Origin: a bacterium
Lineage (GTDB): Bacteria > Hinthialibacterota > Hinthialibacteria > Hinthialibacterales > Hinthialibacteraceae
Assembly (NCBI GenBank): GCA_963663405.2
Contig: CAXXSM010000118.1
Coordinates: 1-64,000 of the forward strand
Direction: 5' to 3'
DNA: 64,000 nt
The notes beneath the pieces were generated by a model. The model was given only the letters and a program-made list of their open reading frames with translations. It was not told where the DNA came from and made no database searches. Below are positions 21,352-35,819 of this stretch, in pieces. A program made the position numbers and the translations under genes. How positions within the stretch are numbered: the stretch's first letter is position 1; the number at the start of each line of letters is the position of its first letter.

Positions 21352-23001
21352 GGGTGTAACTCGCGCTCCGCGCTATGCAGCCTGTTCCCAGATTTCATTG
21401 ATCATCTCTCGATATGGATATAACTTATGAACGTTTTCTTGAATACGATGGTCTTGGAAAGCCTCCCAATCGTCATTGAGAAAGACGGCTCGCAAGTCCA
21501 ACATGGCTTGAGCGCCTTCGGTCCGCCAACGCATTCCTGTTCCTTCCATTCGATCCTTGACTAAGTGACGGCAAGCCCCTTCGACCACCCCACTCCCGAT
21601 GGGATAGCCAAACGCTAAATAATAATCATAGCGCATATACTCTCGGTTATTTTCCAAATACGTAATCACGCGCTCCAGCTGTCTCTTTTTTCGCCCCCCC
21701 GCAGACCTCGCTTGGTTTCCCATTTGTCTCAAGCCCACCAATCACTCGGCCCACTTGCCCTTCGAGTAAACGAGTCAGACGGAGTTTCACGAATGTTTTC
21801 CGCTTCTTCACTCCCTTCCGGAACGAAACAATAGGCGGCGCTCCACAGGGCGTTCCATGACGTGATAAATATCGATGATGCAGACGGTAATCGACTTCAT
21901 AGGCTTCGGCTTTTTTCCACAAACGCCCCGTTCCCCGTCCATCAAACAAACGACCGCTTTATTTCCAGCTGCATTCCGGATGTTTCAGTTCCTCCGCAAA
22001 CCATTGGAAGATTCGATCTTTTCCGTTGCTCTCTTCGCCTTCCATCTCTCTTGTCAGTTCCGCCCGCATCTGTTTGTGGCGCGGAACGGGGCGGTTTGCG
22101 CTCTGCTCCTTCCGGAAGATTTCATTCACCACGTCCTCCGCCTGACGAGGAAACGGATCGATTGTATACACTGCGCCTACACACGCTTGACGCTTTTTAT
22201 TCGCCTTTTCTCCTCGTTTCCGTCTCCCCGGCTCAACCGTCTCTTCCCGCCGCATCGGTACTCCCTTCCCATCCGCCGTGAGAACTAGAATCGAGCCCTC
22301 TTCTTCCGCGGCGGGTGTGGGCTGCGCCCAGCGAAACGCTTCCACCTCTTGCGCCATGGCGCCGTTCATATATTCCAGACTGCGAACCGACTGGCCAATC
22401 CCCAATATCCGTTCCAAGGTTTGACTGGATTGCTGATAAGAGTTTTGCACACAAAACGCCTGCGACCATTCTTGGAGTAAAAAGGAAAAATCACTTTCGG
22501 GTAAATTCAGCCGGGCGTCCAACGGAACCACCTCATGTTTTTGGCTCTCGCGAGTTCCATAGACCGTTCGGTTAATCATGATTTCACCAAAGACGGATAC
22601 ATACCGCTTTTCGTATTGCGTGTCCAAGCGGCGTAAGGTTTTCCCGTCCGGCTCAATGGTAGGACCGAGGTCGCCCGTTCCTTGCCGGTCGATCGTCTCT
22701 TCCAGCATGATTCGGCCAAGATTCATAAGACCGCTCCATAGCTCTTTCTCGATTTGATCGATTGGGATTCCGTTTTCGGCTGCTTCTTTCACCTCATTCC
22801 ACAACGCGGCAAACTGATCTTTCGACTTGAAAATTTCTCGTTCTTGTTCCATCATCAACCTGGGGCCTCATTTCAGTCAGGATATACATTGTTTTCATGG
22901 ACTAATGTTATACCTGTTGAGGCCCTTTTTAACAAGTCATAAATTACACTAACTATAATATAATCAATACTTTATGAAATCGAGCTCCGCGGGTTACACC
23001 C
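21352..23001 (-). mobile_element. ISKra4-family-like insertion sequence, 1650 bp
   Basis: Terminal IRs gggtgtaactcgcg / cgcgggttacaccc; 9-bp direct repeat AATGAAAAT at 21343-21351 and 23002-23010. Confidence 0.9.
21373..22858 (-). pseudogene. ISKra4-like DDE transposase, frameshifted into at least three pieces
   Basis: VPLDARLNLP, TADGKGVPM, KKRQACVGAVYTI, and C-terminal YMRYDYYLAFGYPIGSGVVEGACRHLVKDRMEGTGMRW. Confidence 0.85.
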
Positions 23002-27023: not shown

Positions 27024-28022
27024 ATGTTGAGATCTGGATCAATAGTGATAGGGATCGTAATGGTGTGTGGTATTATTCAATCGATTCACGCGCAACAAGC
27101 AGAGAATCTTCTTGCTGTTCGTCAGGCCATTCAAGATGGATTTAACGCGCATGATCTCGATCAAGTGATATCGAATTTCACAGATGATTTCACGGCGGCG
27201 CATGGTTGGAATACCGAAATCAAAGACGCGCAAGGATTCAAAACAGGATGGGAAAATGTAATCGCAGCCTATCCTGATGTGAAATTCACGGAAGGGACTA
27301 TCCTTGTATCCGTTTCAGAAAAAATAGTCATCGAAGAAATGACCATGGAAGGGACCTTTACAAATGAATATAAAGGTATGCAGCCCACCGGCGAAAAATC
27401 AGCGACCCGATATTTAAATGTCTTGGAATTTGAAGGCGATAAAGTCAAACATCTGATGATGTACCTGGATCAACAAACGACTTTAATCAACGCAAAATTG
27501 ATGCCTCCTATGGAGATGCCTCCGGTGGAGCCATCATTTACTATACCCGATCCAGAACCCAGGCCGGGAATGACACCAATCGAACTCTTTCAGGATGGCA
27601 GTGTTTATTGGAATGCGCATGACGAACAGAACTGGATCAAAGGATATACCGAAGAAGCGGATATCTATGCGAATGTCGGTGGTGGTGGCACATTTACCCG
27701 TCTTGAAAATGCGGCGCTGATGACTCTGCATTGGACCGGCTTCCCCGACGCTCATTTTGAAATCGATCGTCTCATTGATATGGGTGACGGATGGGTACTT
27801 GCCGAGATGATCTTTCAGGGAACCCACACAGGTCCTTGGTTTGGGATTCCTGCGACAGGACATCCTTATAAGCAATTACCGATCGCGCAAATTATACACT
27901 ATAATTCTGAGGGTTTGGCTGTTTTTGATCACGCCTATTACGATAACTTATGGATCCTCTCCCAAATTGGTGTTTTTCCTCCGCGTTCCTCCCATGCGAA
28001 TCAGTGGAATTTGTATCGCTAA
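27024..28022 (+). CDS. secreted protein with two SnoaL/ester-cyclase-like (NTF2-fold) domains
   Basis: Signal peptide; AAYPDVKF..EGTFTNEYKGMQPTGEK and GFPDAHF..GTHTGPWFGIPATG; strong AGGAG RBS. Confidence 0.8.
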   Translation: MLRSGSIVIGIVMVCGIIQSIHAQQAENLLAVRQAIQDGFNAHDLDQVISNFTDDFTAAHGWNTEIKDAQGFKTGWENVIAAYPDVKFTEGTILVSVSEKIVIEEMTMEGTFTNEYKGMQPTGEKSATRYLNVLEFEGDKVKHLMMYLDQQTTLINAKLMPPMEMPPVEPSFTIPDPEPRPGMTPIELFQDGSVYWNAHDEQNWIKGYTEEADIYANVGGGGTFTRLENAALMTLHWTGFPDAHFEIDRLIDMGDGWVLAEMIFQGTHTGPWFGIPATGHPYKQLPIAQIIHYNSEGLAVFDHAYYDNLWILSQIGVFPPRSSHANQWNLYR

Positions 28023-28315
28023 AAATCAGTTTCATTTGTGTCTTACAGTGAAAGCAGTTAGGTTGGAAACGACGTTTATCAAGGAATAAATAGATGGTTT
28101 TTATATTATTTTGATAAGTTTATAGAAATTATTATGGCGCACTGATTTATTAAACAACTCAGCATTGGACGAAGCGGCTCCGCCGCAGAGTGTCGTACGC
28201 CGAATTTTCTAGTTGAACAATCCCCTTGCGAAATCTCCTGAGTTGTCATGTATTTCTTCTGAGAAGGCAGTGGCTGTAAGACTGCCAACCACTACTTATT
28301 TACAGGAGAAAGATC

Positions 28316-29163
28316 ATGAAATCATTACGGAAACGCATGATCGAAGACATGACGTTAGCAGGACTGAGCGAAGGCACGCAAAAAGCATACGTCCGAGCCG
28401 TCGCCTCATTCGCTCTAGAATTTGATTGCTCGCCAGAATGCATTAGCGAGGAACTCGTCCGGGTCTATTTACTGAATTTGCGAGACGTGAAGAAAGTCGC
28501 TCTCGGAACGTTTCAGGTCCACTACAGCGCGCTGAAATTTCTTTATCAAACCACGCTGGATCTGGGGTGGCCGTTGTTTGCAAAAAAAAGATTCGTAAGC
28601 CTCGCCAAAAGCGCCTGCCGCATTCATTAACCCATTCCCAAGTTCGCGCCCTCCTGGCCGCCGTCAGGAAAACGCCCTACCGGTTGGCTCTAACGTTGAT
28701 GTATGCGTGCGGCCTTCGGACCAGTGAAGTCATCTCTCTTCCGGTGCGGCAGATCGATTCCAACCAAATGAGTTTACGGATTATTGGGAAGGGCGATAAA
28801 GAGCGAATCGTTCCTCTCCCGGACACCTTGTTGGAGCCGATGCGTGAACTCTGGTTGATGCATCGCCATCCCACCTGGCTATTCCCCAACCAACAAGGCT
28901 CCAACCACATTCCCTCATCGACACTCGGCAAAGCGTTTCGCTTGGCCTGTAACGCTACCGGGCTGACAGACGATGTGAAGCCGCATTCGATGCGTCATTC
29001 GTTTGCCAGCAGATTGCTGGAGAACGGCGAAAGCCTGCGCGTTGTCCAGATTCTTCTCGGCCATTCCAGTATTCGTTCGACACAGATCTACACTCATTTG
29101 ACTGAGCCGCTTCGCCACGAGGCTCAGGATCGGATCAACGCCGTGTTCGCCGATCTGATGTGA
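28316..29163 (+). CDS. tyrosine recombinase: N-terminal SAM-like ORF (28316-28630) plus catalytic ORF (-1 frame, to 29163), joined at the A8 run 28582-28589
   Basis: LRKRMIEDMTLAGLSEGTQKAY SAM-like start; catalytic residues in YACGLR, GKGDKER, HSMRHSFA, LLGH, TQIYTH. Confidence 0.88.
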
Positions 29164-29172
29164 GGAGGAATC

Positions 29173-30339
29173 ATGAATTGCACTTCATCGAACCTCGAAC
29201 TCGGCGATGTGGTTCGCCGGTTTGGCCCGGCCTATATCCGGCAGCAAGGGAAGCGCCTTTTGCCCTCCCAGCGTAAAGCGCTGCACGATATCATGGCCTG
29301 TCATACGGCGGAACTGGGAGGGCATCGTTATCACTGTCAGGACTGCGGCGAAGACTTCTGGGTGTATCACGGGTGTGGCAATCGATCCTGTCCGTCCTGT
29401 CATTCCCAGGCGATGCGGCAATGGATCGAGAAGCGGGAAGACCAGATGCTTGGCTGCCGTTACTTTCATGTAATCGTAACAGTTCCGCAGTCTATCCGGG
29501 CGGCTTTCTTGGCTCATCAAAAGATTCTCTATGGGTTGCTGATGACGACGGCTGCTTCCTGTATCATGGATCTGATGCGCAATCCCCAAGTCGTTGGCGG
29601 GACCCCGGCGATCCTGGCCGTGCTGCACACTTGGCGGGGAGATCTGGAATTGCATCCACATGTCCATCTGTTGGTCAGCGCCGGCGCCGTGAGTGAGGAC
29701 GGCCACTCTTGGATGGAACTCCGCCACCCGAAATGGCTTCTCCATGTGGGAACGCTCAGCTTACTCGTTCGCCGGCGCTTTAAAGAACGGCTCGAAAAAG
29801 CGGCGCCGGAGATCTTCCAAGGCATCGAGACCAAGGTCTGGAATAGAGGCTGGAACTCGTTCTGCAAACCGTATGGCAAAGGCGTGAAAGCCATCTTGAA
29901 TTACCTGGGGCGCTATGTCTATCGCATCGCGATCTCCAACCACCGGCTTCTGGCAATGGACGCTACCCACGTGACGTTCCGCTACAAGACCTTCAAAGAG
30001 AAGCATTGGCGAACTCTCCGCTTGCCGGGCGAAGAATTTCTGCGGCGCTTCGTGATGCATGTGCTCCCCCGCGGCTTCCATAAAGTCCGCTACTATGGGC
30101 TGTGGCATCACTGTCATCGGGACACACGCAATCGAATCCGTTTGCTCCTCGCCCCCAAGGCGGAGAGCGTTTCTATTCCCGAATCGGTTGAGAATTCCAT
30201 CGTTTCAAAAGAGACCAACGACAAAGCAGTATTCGATCGGACCGGCCAAGAATCGGCGCCGGAATGGCCTAAATGTCCGCGTTGCAAAAGCTGTAACGTG
30301 ATTGTCATTGAAACCCTCAATCGGAATCGAAGCCCCTGA
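29173..30339 (+). CDS. IS91-family rolling-circle (Y2/HUH) transposase with N-terminal Zn-binding domain
   Basis: CHTAELGG..CQDC..CGNRSCPSC, HTW..LHPHVH (HUH), YLGRY (YxxxY), HVLPRGFHKVRYYG, C-terminal CPRC. Confidence 0.93.
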   Translation: MNCTSSNLELGDVVRRFGPAYIRQQGKRLLPSQRKALHDIMACHTAELGGHRYHCQDCGEDFWVYHGCGNRSCPSCHSQAMRQWIEKREDQMLGCRYFHVIVTVPQSIRAAFLAHQKILYGLLMTTAASCIMDLMRNPQVVGGTPAILAVLHTWRGDLELHPHVHLLVSAGAVSEDGHSWMELRHPKWLLHVGTLSLLVRRRFKERLEKAAPEIFQGIETKVWNRGWNSFCKPYGKGVKAILNYLGRYVYRIAISNHRLLAMDATHVTFRYKTFKEKHWRTLRLPGEEFLRRFVMHVLPRGFHKVRYYGLWHHCHRDTRNRIRLLLAPKAESVSIPESVENSIVSKETNDKAVFDRTGQESAPEWPKCPRCKSCNVIVIETLNRNRSP

Positions 30340-30534
30340 TCGATTCCGATTGTAAGCATCGCGATGGTAATATAAAGAAATTATAACTTTACGCGGGAAG
30401 ATTTTTTTACTTTTCTTGCCGTGAGGGGATTTCTATAGCTTCAAGAGGATTTTCTCTTTCTAAACTATCAACTTCTCTTCCTCAATTAAGCCGTTTCGCG
30501 AATAAATGGCGTGTTATTGGTTCTCACATTCCCC

Positions 30535-30605
30535 CCGCACTTCGTCCAATAGAGTTTGTATCTCGGCTTCGCTCGATAAAAACTCCTATCTATTGGACGA
30601 AGCGG
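30535..30605. other. junction hairpin (attC-like / oriIS-like recombination site), complete only between the two copies
   Basis: cttcgtccaataga (30540-30553) is the exact reverse complement of tctattggacgaag (30589-30602); inner stem gagtttgtatc/gataaaaactc has one mismatch. Confidence 0.7.
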
Positions 30606-30743
30606 CTCCGCCGCAGAGTGTCGTACGCCGAATTTTCTAGTTGAACAATCCCCTTGCGAAATCTCCTGAGTTGTCATGTATTTCTTCTGAGAAGGCAGTG
30701 GCTGTAAGACTGCCAACCACTACTTATTTACAGGAGAAAGATC

Positions 30744-31591
30744 ATGAAATCATTACGGAAACGCATGATCGAAGACATGACGTTAGCAGGACTGAGCGAA
30801 GGCACGCAAAAAGCATACGTCCGAGCCGTCGCCTCATTCGCTCTAGAATTTGATTGCTCGCCAGAATGCATTAGCGAGGAACTCGTCCGGGTCTATTTAC
30901 TGAATTTGCGAGACGTGAAGAAAGTCGCTCTCGGAACGTTTCAGGTCCACTACAGCGCGCTGAAATTTCTTTATCAAACCACGCTGGATCTGGGGTGGCC
31001 GTTGTTTGCAAAAAAAAGATTCGTAAGCCTCGCCAAAAGCGCCTGCCGCATTCATTAACCCATTCCCAAGTTCGCGCCCTCCTGGCCGCCGTCAGGAAAA
31101 CGCCCTACCGGTTGGCTCTAACGTTGATGTATGCGTGCGGCCTTCGGACCAGTGAAGTCATCTCTCTTCCGGTGCGGCAGATCGATTCCAACCAAATGAG
31201 TTTACGGATTATTGGGAAGGGCGATAAAGAGCGAATCGTTCCTCTCCCGGACACCTTGTTGGAGCCGATGCGTGAACTCTGGTTGATGCATCGCCATCCC
31301 ACCTGGCTATTCCCCAACCAACAAGGCTCCAACCACATTCCCTCATCGACACTCGGCAAAGCGTTTCGCTTGGCCTGTAACGCTACCGGGCTGACAGACG
31401 ATGTGAAGCCGCATTCGATGCGTCATTCGTTTGCCAGCAGATTGCTGGAGAACGGCGAAAGCCTGCGCGTTGTCCAGATTCTTCTCGGCCATTCCAGTAT
31501 TCGTTCGACACAGATCTACACTCATTTGACTGAGCCGCTTCGCCACGAGGCTCAGGATCGGATCAACGCCGTGTTCGCCGATCTGATGTGA
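30744..31591 (+). CDS. tyrosine recombinase, copy 2 (same -1 split at A8 31010-31017)
   Basis: Translations identical to those of 28316-29163. Confidence 0.88.
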
Positions 31592-31600
31592 GGAGGAATC

Positions 31601-32767
31601 ATGAATTGCACTTCATCGAACCTCGAACTCGGCGATGTGGTTCGCCGGTTTGGCCCGGCCTATATCCGGCAGCAAGGGAAGCGCCTTTTGCCCTCCCAGC
31701 GTAAAGCGCTGCACGATATCATGGCCTGTCATACGGCGGAACTGGGAGGGCATCGTTATCACTGTCAGGACTGCGGCGAAGACTTCTGGGTGTATCACGG
31801 GTGTGGCAATCGATCCTGTCCGTCCTGTCATTCCCAGGCGATGCGGCAATGGATCGAGAAGCGGGAAGACCAGATGCTTGGCTGCCGTTACTTTCATGTA
31901 ATCGTAACAGTTCCGCAGTCTATCCGGGCGGCTTTCTTGGCTCATCAAAAGATTCTCTATGGGTTGCTGATGACGACGGCTGCTTCCTGTATCATGGATC
32001 TGATGCGCAATCCCCAAGTCGTTGGCGGGACCCCGGCGATCCTGGCCGTGCTGCACACTTGGCGGGGAGATCTGGAATTGCATCCACATGTCCATCTGTT
32101 GGTCAGCGCCGGCGCCGTGAGTGAGGACGGCCACTCTTGGATGGAACTCCGCCACCCGAAATGGCTTCTCCATGTGGGAACGCTCAGCTTACTCGTTCGC
32201 CGGCGCTTTAAAGAACGGCTCGAAAAAGCGGCGCCGGAGATCTTCCAAGGCATCGAGACCAAGGTCTGGAATAGAGGCTGGAACTCGTTCTGCAAACCGT
32301 ATGGCAAAGGCGTGAAAGCCATCTTGAATTACCTGGGGCGCTATGTCTATCGCATCGCGATCTCCAACCACCGGCTTCTGGCAATGGACGCTACCCACGT
32401 GACGTTCCGCTACAAGACCTTCAAAGAGAAGCATTGGCGAACTCTCCGCTTGCCGGGCGAAGAATTTCTGCGGCGCTTCGTGATGCATGTGCTCCCCCGC
32501 GGCTTCCATAAAGTCCGCTACTATGGGCTGTGGCATCACTGTCATCGGGACACACGCAATCGAATCCGTTTGCTCCTCGCCCCCAAGGCGGAGAGCGTTT
32601 CTATTCCCGAATCGGTTGAGAATTCCATCGTTTCAAAAGAGACCAACGACAAAGCAGTATTCGATCGGACCGGCCAAGAATCGGCGCCGGAATGGCCTAA
32701 ATGTCCGCGTTGCAAAAGCTGTAACGTGATTGTCATTGAAACCCTCAATCGGAATCGAAGCCCCTGA
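31601..32767 (+). CDS. IS91-family Y2 transposase, copy 2
   Basis: Translation identical to that of 29173-30339. Confidence 0.93.
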   Translation: MNCTSSNLELGDVVRRFGPAYIRQQGKRLLPSQRKALHDIMACHTAELGGHRYHCQDCGEDFWVYHGCGNRSCPSCHSQAMRQWIEKREDQMLGCRYFHVIVTVPQSIRAAFLAHQKILYGLLMTTAASCIMDLMRNPQVVGGTPAILAVLHTWRGDLELHPHVHLLVSAGAVSEDGHSWMELRHPKWLLHVGTLSLLVRRRFKERLEKAAPEIFQGIETKVWNRGWNSFCKPYGKGVKAILNYLGRYVYRIAISNHRLLAMDATHVTFRYKTFKEKHWRTLRLPGEEFLRRFVMHVLPRGFHKVRYYGLWHHCHRDTRNRIRLLLAPKAESVSIPESVENSIVSKETNDKAVFDRTGQESAPEWPKCPRCKSCNVIVIETLNRNRSP

Positions 32768-33020
32768 TCGATTCCGATTGTAAGCATCGCGATGGTAATA
32801 TAAAGAAATTATAACTTTACGCGGGAAGATTTTTTACTTTTCTTGCCGTGAGGGGATTTCTATAGCTTCAAGAGGATTTTCTCTTTCTAAACTATCAACT
32901 TCTCTTCCTCAATTAAGCCGTTTCGCGAATAAATGGCGTGTTATTGGTTCTCACATTCCCCCCGCACTTCGTCCAATAGAGTTTGTATCTCGGCTTCGCT
33001 CGATAAAAACTCCTATCTAT

Positions 33021-33935
33021 TTACTCACAATTAATGACGGTTCCCAGGTTATAGGCTTTAAGAAAACGAACTTCGGATTCCATCCCGTATGAGGTAAAAA
33101 CTTCCCGCATCGCTTCGCCGATGCTTTCCCGATTCCGCTGTGTGACCGCCATCATCGTTGATCCGGAACCGCTCAAATACCCCCCAATGGCTCCGGCTTC
33201 TCTCGCGGCGTGGATCACGTCGAAGAGAGGTTTTAGCGCAGGGATCTTCGCTTGCCGATCGATTTGATGAAGCCGGTCCTCGAATAAATCCCCCATGCTT
33301 TCGTAATCCCCTTTTGCGAAAGCGAGCGCAAGAAGCGCAGCGTGATTGACGTTGAAGACCGCATCTTCTCGTGGGATTGTATCCGCGAACACGACACGGG
33401 CCTTATCGGTTTCAACCGCCTGCGAGGGCCAGACCGCGACGAAGTCGAGTGTGTTTGGAATTTCGCATTTATAGCAATAGAGTTTTCCGTTTACAATCCC
33501 CGATGCGGTCATTCCCCCATAAAATGAAGCGGCCGCGTTATCCGTGCAAGCCTCTAATTCCGAAACGATGGTAACAAGCTTCCGATCGGAAATCTCAGCC
33601 GCAAGCATCGCGTTCAATCCAGCCACCACAGCGATCCGGAACGTGGCGCTGCTGGCCAATCCACGCGCAATAGGCACATTGTTATCCACTTTCAGCGTAA
33701 AATGCGTCTCTGGAAGACCGGTCTTTTCGAAGAAATACCGCGCCGCATACTGGATCATCTTTTCGCATGGCTCATGCAACGCTGGATCAATCCCACAATT
33801 TTCATCTAACACAGTCTCTGAATCATTTTGTATTAACTCAAATGAATTCAGAAGATTAACAGCTATGCCCAGCGTATCAAATCCTGGGCCTAGATTAGCG
33901 GACGAAGCGGGCACATGGATTGTAACTGTTTTCAT
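33021..33935 (-). CDS. thrB: homoserine kinase
   Basis: VPASSANLGPGFDTLG, VPIARGLASSA GHMP motif, DNAAA, EDRLHQ, LSGSGST. Confidence 0.92.
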   Translation of the reverse strand: MKTVTIHVPASSANLGPGFDTLGIAVNLLNSFELIQNDSETVLDENCGIDPALHEPCEKMIQYAARYFFEKTGLPETHFTLKVDNNVPIARGLASSATFRIAVVAGLNAMLAAEISDRKLVTIVSELEACTDNAAASFYGGMTASGIVNGKLYCYKCEIPNTLDFVAVWPSQAVETDKARVVFADTIPREDAVFNVNHAALLALAFAKGDYESMGDLFEDRLHQIDRQAKIPALKPLFDVIHAAREAGAIGGYLSGSGSTMMAVTQRNRESIGEAMREVFTSYGMESEVRFLKAYNLGTVINCE

Positions 33936-34110: not shown

Positions 34111-34134
34111 AAAAAAAACAATGTGTTAACGTTT

Positions 34135-34200
34135 CTATTCTTCCAAAAAATAATCAAAATCGATTTTCTTGATTTCGTAGGTGGATTCAACCAAAACGCT
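34135..34200 (-). repeat. diverged second copy of the last ~21 codons of mrr (direct repeat of 34898-34963)
   Basis: Encodes SVLVESTYEIKKIDFDYFLEE* versus GVSIESTYEIKKIDFDYFLEE* in mrr. Confidence 0.85.
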
Positions 34201-34227
34201 GCTCTCATATTCTATTCTTTTAACGTA

Positions 34228-34774: not shown

Positions 34775-34897
34775 GATTCTGCCTCCAAGAAAACACACGA
34801 TAATATACTAATATATCCTATATTATCGTATCCTAAAAGCAAAAATCGACTTTTATTTCTCAAAAAGAAAGTATCATGAAACTTTGGATTTTCTTTC

Positions 34898-35819
34898 CTA
34901 TTCTTCCAAAAAATAATCGAAATCAATCTTCTTGATTTCGTAGGTGGATTCAATTGAAACGCCGATATTATAATCAATCATATACTGCGCGAGAGCCTCT
35001 CCATCAATCAGAATGATTTTTGAATCCATTTTTCCCACACATTCAGTCGCCTGACTTGTGAAATCAGAAGTCGTGATGAAAATTCCTTTTTTAGCATGAT
35101 GCATTTGTAAAGCGCCAGCAAATTTTTGGATTTCAGGACGAGAGACGCTCCCTTCCCAACGTTTGGCTTGAATATAGATCACATCCAATCCCAACCGGTC
35201 TTCCTTGATAATCCCATCAATCCCCCCATCACCGCTTTTCCCAACCGCCTGCCCGGCGTCTTTCAAAGTTCCCCCATACCCCATTTTCACAATCAACTCA
35301 ACAACGATTCGTTCAAAATAAGCGGGGGAAACTTTCTTCAATTGATCCAACAACTCAGACGCTAATTCATTTCTGATCTTTTGGTATCCATTTTCCAACG
35401 CCTCTAATGGTTGTAATCTGATCATCTTTTTGCTCAATCTCGTCAGTACTACTTTGATCTTTACTATCATTTAAGCGTCTTTCTTTAAATTCAATAAATT
35501 CAGGAAATTTCTTTAAATAGTCATTATCGATTTTAGCAGGATTCTGTTGAAGAACATCCAATCCTCTTTGTGTAATTTTCACAATTCCTCTTGATGGATT
35601 ATCAACAAGACCCGCTTTTTTTAAATATACTTTCGCCCAAGAAACCCTATTTTCAAATTTCGATTGTCGACCGCTTGGTACAAGTACTTTTAAGTCATCA
35701 TCTGAGAGATCCATTTCCTCAGCCATTCTGTCATAAACTTCACGTATCCGATGATCTTCTTGATCAGAGCAGAATTTCAAAATGGGTAACATGAATTGTT
35801 GATAATCTGGAACAGCCAT
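34898..35819 (-). pseudogene. mrr: Mrr type IV restriction endonuclease, frameshifted near 35411
   Basis: Mrr_N (VPDYQQFMLPIL..PSGRQSKFENRVSWAKVYLKKAG) and Mrr_cat (SPAYFERIV..SGDGGIDGII.EDRLGLD.IYIQAKRW) lie in different frames. Confidence 0.88.

What the first reader, a model, noticed from the sequence alone, without database searches (positions are those of the whole stretch)
30535..30605. Copy-copy junction rebuilds an integron attC-like hairpin overlapping an oriIS-like end
Seen: the element's right end carries cttcgtccaataga (30540-30553). Its perfect complement tctattggacgaag (30589-30602) exists only where the right end joins the left end, as in a circle or dimer. An inner stem (gagtttgtatc/gataaaaactc) and a few unpaired bases complete a ~70 bp fold. 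The outer cores GTCCAAT (30544-30550) and ATTGGAC (30592-30598) span 55 bp and match the attC pattern RYYYAAC/GTTRRRY with one compensating C>T/G>A change. All three boundaries share ATT (agcATTggac, tctATTggac, tctATTtact). The same end reads AAAAACTCCTATCTAT. Established: integron integrases recombine folded single-stranded attC at G|TT; IS91-type HUH enzymes displace ssDNA from an oriIS downstream of the transposase gene. From memory, that oriIS has an AAATTCCTATxCAT-like motif. Inference: the HUH enzyme makes a ssDNA circle, the junction folds into a recombination site, and the element's own tyrosine recombinase inserts it at A|TT, like a self-mobilising cassette. Caveat: the recombinase seems to lack the IntI-specific insertion, and the hairpin could serve HUH nicking alone.
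Basis: partly seen in the sequence, partly recalled or inferred. Interest (0 to 1): 0.9.

Follow-up and report, generated by a model that had tools for sequence, protein, structure and literature searches.

The report
Tandem IS91-type element joint hairpin
Two copies of a jumping gene of the IS91 type sit head to tail, and their joint folds into a hairpin that is conserved across the family and looks like an integron recombination site, but which of its two enzymes uses it is still open.

Summary
Two copies of a 2427/2428-bp element lie head to tail (28165-30592, 30593-33019) and share ATT. The 14-nt perfect complement and the ~70-nt fold are there (DNA fold -19.3 kcal/mol, z -5.9).

The element is an IS91-family insertion sequence. 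It has a Y2 HUH transposase (NCBIfam IS91 equivalog, 343.8 bits) and an upstream tyrosine recombinase. This gene pair is already noted in print.

Ten of the 14 paired bases are a family-wide inverted repeat: TTGGACGAAG at the left tip against CTTCGTCCAA about 45 nt inside the right end. The inner stem is a hairpin with strong covariation. The four extra pairs (TAGA/TCTA) show no covariation, and two of them compete with that hairpin.

An empty site shows insertion without duplication. The left base of NTT comes from the target and the right A from the element.

The recombinase groups with an integron integrase rather than chromosomal Xer, lacks the IntI insert and keeps its catalytic residues. 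In most relatives it is split at a poly-A tract.

Most likely the HUH enzyme cuts and joins, as shown for IS91, and the recombinase has an undefined catalytic role on the repeat.

The parts
28165..30592 (+). Copy 1 of the IS91-family element, written as TTGGACG...CTATCTA (2428 bp, T7 run at 30402-30408)
30593..33019 (+). Copy 2 of the element (2427 bp). It is followed by the TT (33020-33021) that the empty site assigns to the target or to the shared triplet
30540..30549 (+). Subterminal right inverted repeat (IRR) CTTCGTCCAA of copy 1; the same sequence is at 32967-32976 in copy 2
30552..30585 (+). Conserved right-end hairpin (oriIS-type palindrome), with CGGCTTCGC in its loop (30564-30572)
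   Evidence: 92.2% of cells paired; 9 of 14 pairs changed on both sides
30586..30594 (+). Right-end tail CTATCTA plus the shared TT. The joint lies between 30592 and 30595
30593..30611 (+). Left tip of copy 2: IRL TTGGACGAAG followed by CGGCTCCGC, the same-strand motif that also sits in the right-end hairpin loop. The same sequence is at 28165-28183 in copy 1
30744..31058 (+). Recombinase frame 1: N-terminal SAM-like core-binding domain, 104 aa (copy 1: 28316-28630)
31010..31017 (+). A8 run in register A_AAA_AAA_A, where the recombinase reading frame changes by -1 (copy 1: 28582-28589)
30995..31591 (+). Recombinase frame 2: catalytic domain with R, K, H, R, H, Y present (copy 1: 28567-29163)
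31601..32767 (+). IS91-family Y2 HUH transposase, 388 aa (copy 1: 29173-30339)

Best explanation
The feature is the head-to-tail joint of two copies of an IS91-family insertion sequence that also carries an IntI-related tyrosine recombinase. The joint has the sequence expected of the element's circular transposition intermediate, with the right (ori-type) end abutting the left (ter-type) end.

The fold is real and belongs to the family. Its outer stem is the left terminal repeat TTGGACGAAG paired with a copy of itself about 45 nt inside the right end. Its inner stem is the conserved right-end hairpin.

Most likely mechanism (inferred by analogy with IS91):
1. The Y2 HUH transposase nicks the bottom strand just 3' of AA, at the right end and again after ...CGTCCAA at the left end.
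2. The strand is displaced by rolling-circle replication.
3. Pairing of the two repeats holds the strand's ends together while it is closed into a single-stranded circle.
4. The circle is joined into a target between N and TT, without duplication.

A resident right end followed by TT is itself such a site, which gives tandem copies.

The recombinase is catalytically intact and conserved. Its full-length form needs a frame change at a poly-A run. It probably acts on the duplex made by the repeats, for example to resolve tandem or multimeric products or to make termination accurate. Its step has not been identified.
For: Shown here:
- The transposase passes the NCBIfam IS91 equivalog (343.8 bits, cut-off 125). 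It carries Pfam Y2_Tnp and Zn_Tnp_IS91, with H161/H163 and Y244/Y248 invariant in 33 homologues.
- The host genome holds about 13 full copies.
- An empty paralogous site reads ...gagATTttagc against the occupied ...gagATT[element]ATTttagc, so there is no target duplication.
- At 14 own sites the left base is A 11, C 1, G 1, T 1, while the right triplet is ATT in 14 of 14.
- The right-end tail resembles that of three IS91-like copies, TCCTATCGAT followed by CAAG/GAAC.
- The right-end hairpin covaries: 33 sequences, 92.2% paired against 42-52% when slid, 0 of 500 shuffles reach the score.
- The left-tip/subterminal repeat is present in all 24 elements with both ends defined. It is 10 bp here, 12 bp in one subgroup and 25-47 bp in another, with compensatory variants in further lineages.
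- In-silico joints pair it in 23 of 24 elements.
- Natural joints of related elements occur in 4 of 35 metagenome pattern hits. One joins two unlike copies, about 6 of 88 bases different by eye, which argues for insertion next to a resident end.

From print:
- IS91 forms circles with oriIS and terIS joined.
- The bottom-strand ssDNA circle is inserted by TnpA.
- IS91-family elements make no duplication and use a tetranucleotide target next to oriIS (PMC13181058, abstract and passages).
Against: - No experiment or read evidence for circles, or for which enzyme cuts where.
- The recombinase keeps R, H, R, H, Y in 56 of 56 distinct sequences and K in 54 of 56. It therefore must catalyse something, and this account does not define what.
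- Its relatives include integron integrases, which act on folded ssDNA at G|TT, the very geometry seen here.
- In the folded window joint the N|TT point lies inside a perfect 14-bp duplex. That suits a tyrosine recombinase better than an HUH nuclease, which needs single-stranded DNA.
- The repeat-bearing left end was seen only in recombinase-bearing elements. The one recombinase-less lineage examined (IS91-like, 3 copies, by eye) has a different left end. This ties the repeat to the recombinase.
- The tandem could not be confirmed with reads.
Confidence: 0.55

Rival explanations
1. The HUH enzyme only makes the single-stranded circle. The joint folds into an attC-like site, with R box GTCCAAN/N'TTGGAC. 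The element's own IntI-related recombinase then integrates it by a single strand exchange at N|TT, as integron cassettes or the CTX phage are integrated.
For: - The core matches RYYYAAC/GTTRRRY at 6 of 7 and 6 of 7 positions here, and exactly in one subgroup (GTCCAAC...GTTGGAC).
- The crossover lies just after the first base of NTT. [quoted passage not shown]
- The recombinase groups with a true IntI (484 bits) and apart from six chromosomal Xer proteins, with split support 100/99.
- A preprint places IS91 recombinases in the integron-like subgroup (10.1101/542381).
- Catalytic residues are conserved.
- The repeat was seen only together with the recombinase in the lineages examined.
- In the long-repeat subgroup the distal repeat varies between elements but stays complementary within each, as expected if pairing itself is selected. 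It also carries a recurrent 1-nt bulge.
Against: - The integron-integrase model scores 127 bits against a cut-off of 265.
- The IntI-specific insertion is absent: 16 residues stand opposite 58 of IntI4.
- The base pair across the crossover (alignment columns 13 and 57) is formed in only 5 of 33 rows. By reading the alignment, about 7 more rows pair if slid by one column. The four junction-proximal pairs do no better than shuffles (68.2% against 70.6%).
- No second (L) box was seen, and no extrahelical base in the window's stem.
- Apart from the TT used to anchor them, the 46 targets show by eye no recombinase-arm-like sequence.
- IS91 TnpA alone inserts ssDNA circles (PMC13181058).
- Full-length recombinase needs a rare frame change in 61 of 70 loci, which is odd for the enzyme of an obligatory step.
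Confidence: 0.2
2. The recombinase works on double-stranded DNA. It binds the palindrome-bearing repeats and recombines directly repeated left ends of tandem or multimeric products of rolling-circle transposition. This reduces them to monomers, or releases double-stranded circles, as Xer does for replicon dimers. The short frame-1 product, a DNA-binding domain alone, regulates.
For: - Tandems do occur, here and in 4 metagenome contigs.
- By sequence the recombinase is Xer-like (best PDB matches XerD and XerA; best NCBIfam matches XerA/XerD/XerC).
- By my reading, the left end holds an imperfect palindrome (CGAAGC-G-GCTTCG in relatives).
- The gene sits where IS91 has orf121, whose product lowers transposition and improves termination at terIS (PMC13181058, abstract).
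- The split at poly-A gives two products, as in other insertion sequences.
Against: - The palindrome has no 6-8-bp spacer of the usual kind and is weaker in the window's element (CGAAGCGGCTCCG).
- The tandem in the window persists unresolved.
- No direct evidence.
Confidence: 0.2
3. The joint is an assembly artefact or the complementarity is chance.
For: - The two copies differ only in a homopolymer length, and public contigs show T6 only.
- No listed contig bridges the joint.
- The four extra pairs are specific to this element.
Against: - The fold z-score is -5.9.
- Ten of the 14 pairs are conserved family-wide with compensatory changes.
- Natural joints of relatives exist in independent short-read contigs.
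Confidence: 0.04

Closest known systems
IS91 family insertion sequences (IS91, IS801, IS1294)
   Same: - Y2 HUH transposase with an N-terminal zinc-binding domain.
- No target duplication.
- Short target next to the end downstream of the transposase gene.
- That end carries a palindrome and a TCCTATC.AT-type tail.
- An accessory gene lies just upstream of tnpA, as orf121 does in IS91.
   Different: - The upstream gene is a full tyrosine recombinase.
- The left tip is TTGGACGAAG-CGGCT.CGC and is repeated in inverted form about 45 nt inside the right end. In the IS91-like copies read here the left tip (CGAGTAGG...) mirrors, by eye, the extreme right tip.
- The target is N|TT rather than CTTG/GTTC.
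IS91-family members with a phage-integrase-type second ORF (noted in ISfinder-based reviews; ISShvi3 and ISwz1 are names recalled or met in papers)
   Same: - Same gene pair and order.
[quoted passage not shown]
- The three closest plasmid relatives all have an integrase gene directly upstream.
   Different: - This element is 30.7-36.9% identical in TnpA to the three plasmid relatives fetched, and to the best plasmid hit overall, and 45-54% to most of the 80 genome loci.
- In the papers I could search I found no description of the end architecture, the joint fold or the poly-A split.
Integron attC sites and IntI integrases
   Same: - Inverted core pair of the RYYYAAC/GTTRRRY type.
- Crossover after the first base of the triplet.
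- A folded single strand is the plausible substrate.
- The recombinase falls on the IntI side of the Xer/IntI split.
   Different: - No IntI insertion and below the family cut-off.
- No L boxes.
- No attC-type extrahelical bases seen in the window.
- The stem runs outward for 10-47 bp.
- The element carries its own enzymes.
- There is no attI platform.
CTX-type phage integration by XerCD on folded ssDNA
   Same: Two inverted sites some tens of nucleotides apart in a circular single strand could fold into a duplex site for a Xer-like recombinase.
   Different: - Targets here share no dif-like site.
- The enzyme is element-encoded.
- This comparison rests on recalled knowledge only.
IS200/IS605 and Helitrons (other HUH transposons)
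   Same: Subterminal hairpins, single-strand chemistry, no duplication, and a hairpin about 10 nt from the 3' tip of the top strand.
   Different: Different transposase families. No helicase, no TnpB, and an added recombinase.

Membership tests
IS91 family | Y2 HUH transposase with zinc-binding N-terminus | tested here: met
   Pfam Y2_Tnp 3.3e-48 and Zn_Tnp_IS91 2.1e-28. NCBIfam transpos_IS91 343.8 bits against a cut-off of 125.
IS91 family | HUH motif and two catalytic tyrosines | tested here: met
   H161, H163, Y244 and Y248 are invariant in an alignment of 33 homologues. Assigning them to the motifs is my reading.
IS91 family | Insertion without target-site duplication | tested here: met
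   One empty paralogous site has a single ATT where the occupied site has ATT on both sides of 2427 bp. This rests on one site.
IS91 family | Short sequence-specific target next to the ori end | tested here: inconclusive
   46 sites were compiled by anchoring on the TT, so its constancy is partly by construction. Two right ends read AAT or AGT instead (L054, L082). The own-genome left base is A in 11 of 14.
IS91 family | ori-type end with palindrome and conserved tail downstream of tnpA | tested here: met
   The hairpin covaries. The tail TCCTATCTAT compares with TCCTATCGAT in three IS91-like copies.
IS91 family | Rolling-circle transposition through circular ssDNA | not testable with these tools
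   Contigs only; none of those listed bridges the joint.
Integron attC site | Inverse core RYYYAAC and core GTTRRRY that pair | tested here: inconclusive
   The window has GTCCAAT/ATTGGAC (6 of 7 positions each, and paired). One subgroup has GTCCAAC/GTTGGAC. In the large long-repeat subgroup the seventh position is mispaired. The RYYYAAC consensus is recalled; GTTRRRY is from PMC8876359.
Integron attC site | Second pair of boxes (L''/L') and extrahelical bases | tested here: not met
   The window stem is a perfect 14 bp followed by the hairpin. The candidate inner pairs AGR/TCT show no covariation and clash with the hairpin base. A recurrent 1-nt bulge exists only in the long-repeat subgroup.
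Integron attC site | Score against an attC covariance model | not testable with these tools
   Rfam gave no relevant match in 27500-33600. That Rfam holds no attC family is my recollection.
Integron integrase (IntI) | Family score and the IntI-specific insertion in the catalytic domain | tested here: not met
   TIGR02249 scores 127.2 bits against a cut-off of 265, matched in two stretches. Against IntI4 (2a3v), query residues 96-111 stand opposite chain residues 181-238.
Integron-like subgroup of simple tyrosine recombinases | Closer to IntI than to chromosomal XerC/D | tested here: met
   In a tree of 23 proteins, a split with support 100/99 puts 15 IS91-linked recombinases, L172 (also IS91-linked) and one true IntI apart from 6 Xer proteins. 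There is only one IntI and the tree is unrooted. It agrees with 10.1101/542381 (passage).
Tyrosine recombinase (active) | Catalytic R-K-H-R-H/W-Y | tested here: met
   All six are present in the window. Among 56 distinct relatives, R, H, R, H, Y are kept in 56 of 56 and K in 54 of 56.

The most novel reading that the evidence does not exclude
IS91-type rolling-circle elements with IntI-related recombinases may use a two-enzyme cycle. The HUH transposase would make a single-stranded circle whose joint folds into an attC-like site, and the recombinase would integrate or excise that site at N|TT. These elements would then be self-mobilising cassettes and living relatives of the ancestor of integron cassette recombination.
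Probability: 0.2. Interest if true: 0.9.

Novelty: new member of a known kind. Interest (0 to 1): 0.6.

Why it matters
The role of the integrase-type gene carried by part of the IS91 family is not explained in anything I could find. The origin of integron recombination on folded single strands is also an open question.

This locus, with 80 genome loci, six plasmid loci and 35 metagenome stretches gathered here, gives concrete material for experiments:
- a conserved joint fold;
- a core of the attC type placed exactly at the crossover;
- a catalytically conserved recombinase that groups with IntI;
- a conserved poly-A frame change that should set how much full-length enzyme is made.

If the HUH enzyme does all the cutting, the result is still a useful description of a widespread subgroup of insertion sequences. 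It would also give a likely reason for tandem copies.

Tried and rejected
- First scan of genome contigs with the single transposase found no relative. The second, with an alignment, worked.
- Rfam scan of 27500-33600 gave only three weak, irrelevant matches.
- Junction-proximal pairing TAGA/TCTA was tested as a helix and gave no covariation.
- I looked for wobble bias to tell which strand folds. Among 46 repeat mismatches, top-strand G.T/T.G number 4 and those that would be G.T on the bottom strand number 11. The elements are related, so I draw no conclusion.
- I tested whether the target's first base pairs with the base after CCAA, or equals the element's own base. This holds in the window's genome (A in 11 of 14) and in one subgroup (G in 8 of 8) but not in the long-repeat subgroup. 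Base composition confounds it, so it is left as a note.
- Recombinase-less relatives as a test of dispensability: L055 keeps the right end but has unrelated DNA upstream of tnpA. It is a single truncated copy and not informative.
- The 4862-bp plasmid record L123 was tested as a dimer of the element. It has no internal repeat.
- Sequencing runs: no RNA holder listed. Contigs of four runs break at the element boundary, and none of those listed bridges the joint. This gives no verdict on the tandem or on circles.
- Integron integrase was sought in the own genome and in 5 genomes behind my loci: none over the cut-off. One was found among the 35 genomes of the phylum.
- Supplementary files of papers were not opened. 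Those of PMC13181058 and 10.1101/542381 may hold end sequences or subgroup lists that bear on the comparison.
- Claims that something is not in print rest on searches of the held library only.

Full report
**What is there.** Positions 28164-33021 of the window hold two head-to-tail copies of a 2427/2428-bp element. They are identical apart from a T7/T6 run at 30402-30408. Each copy encodes:
- a tyrosine recombinase in two overlapping frames: 104 aa with the SAM-like N-terminal domain and 198 aa with the catalytic domain;
- a 388-aa Y2 HUH transposase.

The transposase passes the NCBIfam IS91 equivalog (343.8 bits, cut-off 125). The genome holding the window (8.44 Mb, 170 contigs) carries about 13 full copies at 95-100% identity, plus fragments.

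**The observation.**
- the 14-nt perfect complement (30540-30553 with 30589-30602);
- the inner stem;
- the 55-nt span of GTCCAAT...ATTGGAC;
- ATT at all three boundaries.

The 81-nt stretch folds as DNA to -19.3 kcal/mol, z -5.86, with 0 of 200 shuffles as good. The other strand folds about as well.

**Boundaries and chemistry.**
- Fourteen insertion sites in the genome read N-TT-GGACG on the left, with N = A 11, C 1, G 1, T 1. All 14 read ...CTATCT-ATT on the right.
- One copy sits in a repeated sequence whose unoccupied paralogues read ...gagATTttagc, so the net insert is 2427 bp and nothing is duplicated.
- The left base is therefore target-derived and the right A element-derived. The crossover lies after N, within the TT or just behind it.
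- This is the geometry of an integron cassette (G|TT).
- It is equally the geometry of IS91 read on the bottom strand, with a cut 3' of ...AA at the target and 3' of ...CGTCCAA at the left end. Three IS91-like copies fetched from E. coli plasmids end in AAATTCCTATCGAT followed by CAAG, GAAC and GAAC. That matches the published CTTG/GTTC target read on the other strand (PMC13181058, passages).

**Relatives.**
- The transposase has more than 5000 homologues at E <= 1e-20 among the 8000 candidates scored.
- An alignment-driven scan returned 80 loci, many from Planctomycetota metagenome-assembled genomes, most at 45-54% protein identity.
- Seventy of them have the recombinase domains directly upstream of tnpA.
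- Multi-copy genomes and cross-genome pairs define the ends of several lineages.

**Common architecture of the ends.**
- Left tip: TTGGACGAAG followed by CGGCT.CGC.
- Right end: the inverted copy CTTCGTCCAA, then one variable base, a hairpin of about 32-34 nt, a tail of the type CTTRTCTRTT, then flank.
- The hairpin has CGGCTTCGC in its loop. This is the same motif, on the same strand, as at the left tip.
- The hairpin is strongly supported. In 33 sequences 92.2% of cells pair, against 42-52% with slid partners. Nine of 14 pairs change on both sides, and 0 of 500 shuffles reach the covariation score.
- The terminal/subterminal repeat is 10 bp in the window's element and 12 bp (with a one-base gap) in an alphaproteobacterial subgroup.
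- It is 25-47 bp in a large subgroup. There the distal part differs between elements yet stays complementary within each, with a recurrent one-base bulge near position 12.
- Other lineages show compensatory variants: TTGAAC/GTTCAA, TTGCAC/GTGCAA, TTGGACTAAG/CTCAGTCCAA. Plasmid relatives at 31-37% identity show TTGAACTAAG/CTTAGTTCAA.
- When right and left ends are joined inside a script, the top-strand minimum-energy fold pairs the repeat in 23 of 24 elements, z -3.0 to -16.0.

**What the joint adds.**
- Ten of the 14 pairs are the family repeat.
- The other four (TAGA with TCTA) both lie in the right end. As a helix they do no better than shuffles: 68.2% paired against a mean of 70.6%.
- The pair next to the crossover forms in only 5 of 33 rows. 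By reading the alignment, about 7 further rows with a one-base-longer tail pair C with G.
- Two of the four bases belong to the covarying base of the hairpin.

**Tandems elsewhere.**
- Among 114 left tips in my loci and the genome (duplicate fetches included), only the window's own is preceded by a right end.
- A pattern scan of metagenome contigs gave 35 stretches. Four are true right-end/left-tip joints of related elements: L146, L148 and L160 by rule, L151 by eye. The other 31 are unrelated coding sequence or single insertions.
- L146 runs from a partial copy across the joint, through a whole copy, into unique flank.
- In L148 the two right ends differ at about 6 of 88 positions by eye. Two unlike copies therefore lie in tandem, which points to insertion beside a resident end rather than duplication.

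**The recombinase.**
- It has all six catalytic residues.
- Among 56 distinct relatives, R, H, R, H, Y are kept in 56 of 56 and K in 54 of 56.
- By profile scores it is Xer-like. It scores 127 bits on the integron-integrase model (cut-off 265), matched in two pieces.
- Against IntI4 it has 16 residues where IntI4 has 58, so the IntI insertion is absent.
- In a 23-protein tree, a split with support 100/99 sets six chromosomal Xer proteins apart from all IS91-linked recombinases together with the one true IntI I could fetch. The tree is unrooted and has only one IntI.
- A preprint on tyrosine-recombinase classification says that recombinases of IS91 and IS3 elements fall in the integron-like subgroup and lack the IntI insertion (10.1101/542381, passages).

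**A conserved frame change.**
- In the window the two recombinase frames overlap at an A8 run in the register A_AAA_AAA_A. The second frame is -1, including in the two 95% copies.
- Among the 70 loci, 48 have the -1 arrangement (mostly A8), 13 the +1 arrangement (mostly A7), and 9 a single frame with A6 or no run. Near-identical copies from one genome are counted separately.
- Run length and frame go together as expected if an mRNA with A9 or A6 is in frame. That suggests transcriptional slippage or ribosomal frameshifting.
- The default product would be the DNA-binding domain alone.
- I found no mention of this in the papers searched (passages of PMC5009743 and PMC6211511 matched only IS911).

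**How it most likely works.**
- What is shown: the family assignment, the ends, the absence of duplication, the conserved fold and the conserved catalytic residues of both enzymes.
- What is inferred: for IS91 the transposase forms circles with joined ends and inserts the bottom-strand ssDNA circle (PMC13181058). The same enzyme type, the same kind of ori end and the same duplication-free insertion are present here. I therefore take the HUH enzyme as the one that cuts and joins. I take the repeat pairing as what brings the ends of the displaced strand together, and a resident right end plus TT as a preferred target that gives tandems.
- The recombinase must catalyse something.
- Against that model: the missing IntI insertion, the mispaired crossover base in the largest subgroup, the absence of L boxes, targets without any arm-like sequence, and the low default output of full-length enzyme.

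**Limits.**
- Reads could not confirm the tandem.
- Only one recombinase-less lineage (three IS91-like copies) was compared, and by eye.
- The attC consensus RYYYAAC, the CTX-phage comparison and the names of ISfinder entries are recalled.

Noticed in passing
window 31010-31017 (and 28582-28589); L040-L119: The recombinase gene is split at a poly-A run. 48 of 70 loci are in the -1 frame (mostly A8), 13 in the +1 frame (mostly A7), and 9 are a single ORF (A6 or no run). This looks like conserved programmed slippage that makes a DNA-binding-domain-only product by default.
   Followed up: partly
G000 contig C103:9650-19120 and 22089-22127 (outside the window): One interrupted copy of the element (C103:19125-22063) lies inside a long array of perfect 37-41-nt repeats with a period of about 71 nt (dozens of matches). 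It is CRISPR-like in layout. Not examined further.
   Followed up: no
L123 (NZ_CP155766.1, Sphingomonas parapaucimobilis plasmid p4, 4862 bp, circular): A small circular record with no replicon type and only an integrase and an IS91-family transposase annotated. Its ends are of the same kind (CTGGACGA... and ...TCGTCCAG). It could be a free circular form of such an element with cargo. It has no internal repeat.
   Followed up: partly
site table; L101-L118: The target base 5' of TT is G at all 8 sites of the subgroup whose own right end is GTT. It is A at 11 of 14 sites in the window's genome, whose element ends in ATT. The long-repeat subgroup shows no such match. Base composition may explain part of it.
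   Followed up: partly
L046:4936-5021; L089 around 4960: L046 has a second partial right end about 15 nt downstream of a complete element. L089 has a right end followed by reiterated TCTATT-like tails. These may be traces of repeated end-targeted events.
   Followed up: no
window 33021-33935 (- strand): The stop codon (33021-33023, on the - strand) of the flanking GHMP-kinase-type ORF includes the last T of the shared ATT at 33021, so the element sits exactly at the gene's end.
   Followed up: no
window 30402-30408: T7 in copy 1 against T6 in copy 2. Public contigs of the best-holding runs show the shorter form only. This may be a homopolymer error of the assembly.
   Followed up: partly
window 34116-34215 and 34879-34978: A 100-nt direct repeat at 80% identity, 763 nt apart, next to the element. 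Not examined.
   Followed up: no
G000 C103:40785-45044: A copy of the element is itself interrupted by about 1.8 kb of other DNA, with a 10-nt overlap of the element's coordinates (278-287). This looks like another insertion sequence with a 10-bp duplication.
   Followed up: no
PMC9229058 (passage): [quoted passage not shown] This may bear on target choice by this kind of element.
   Followed up: no
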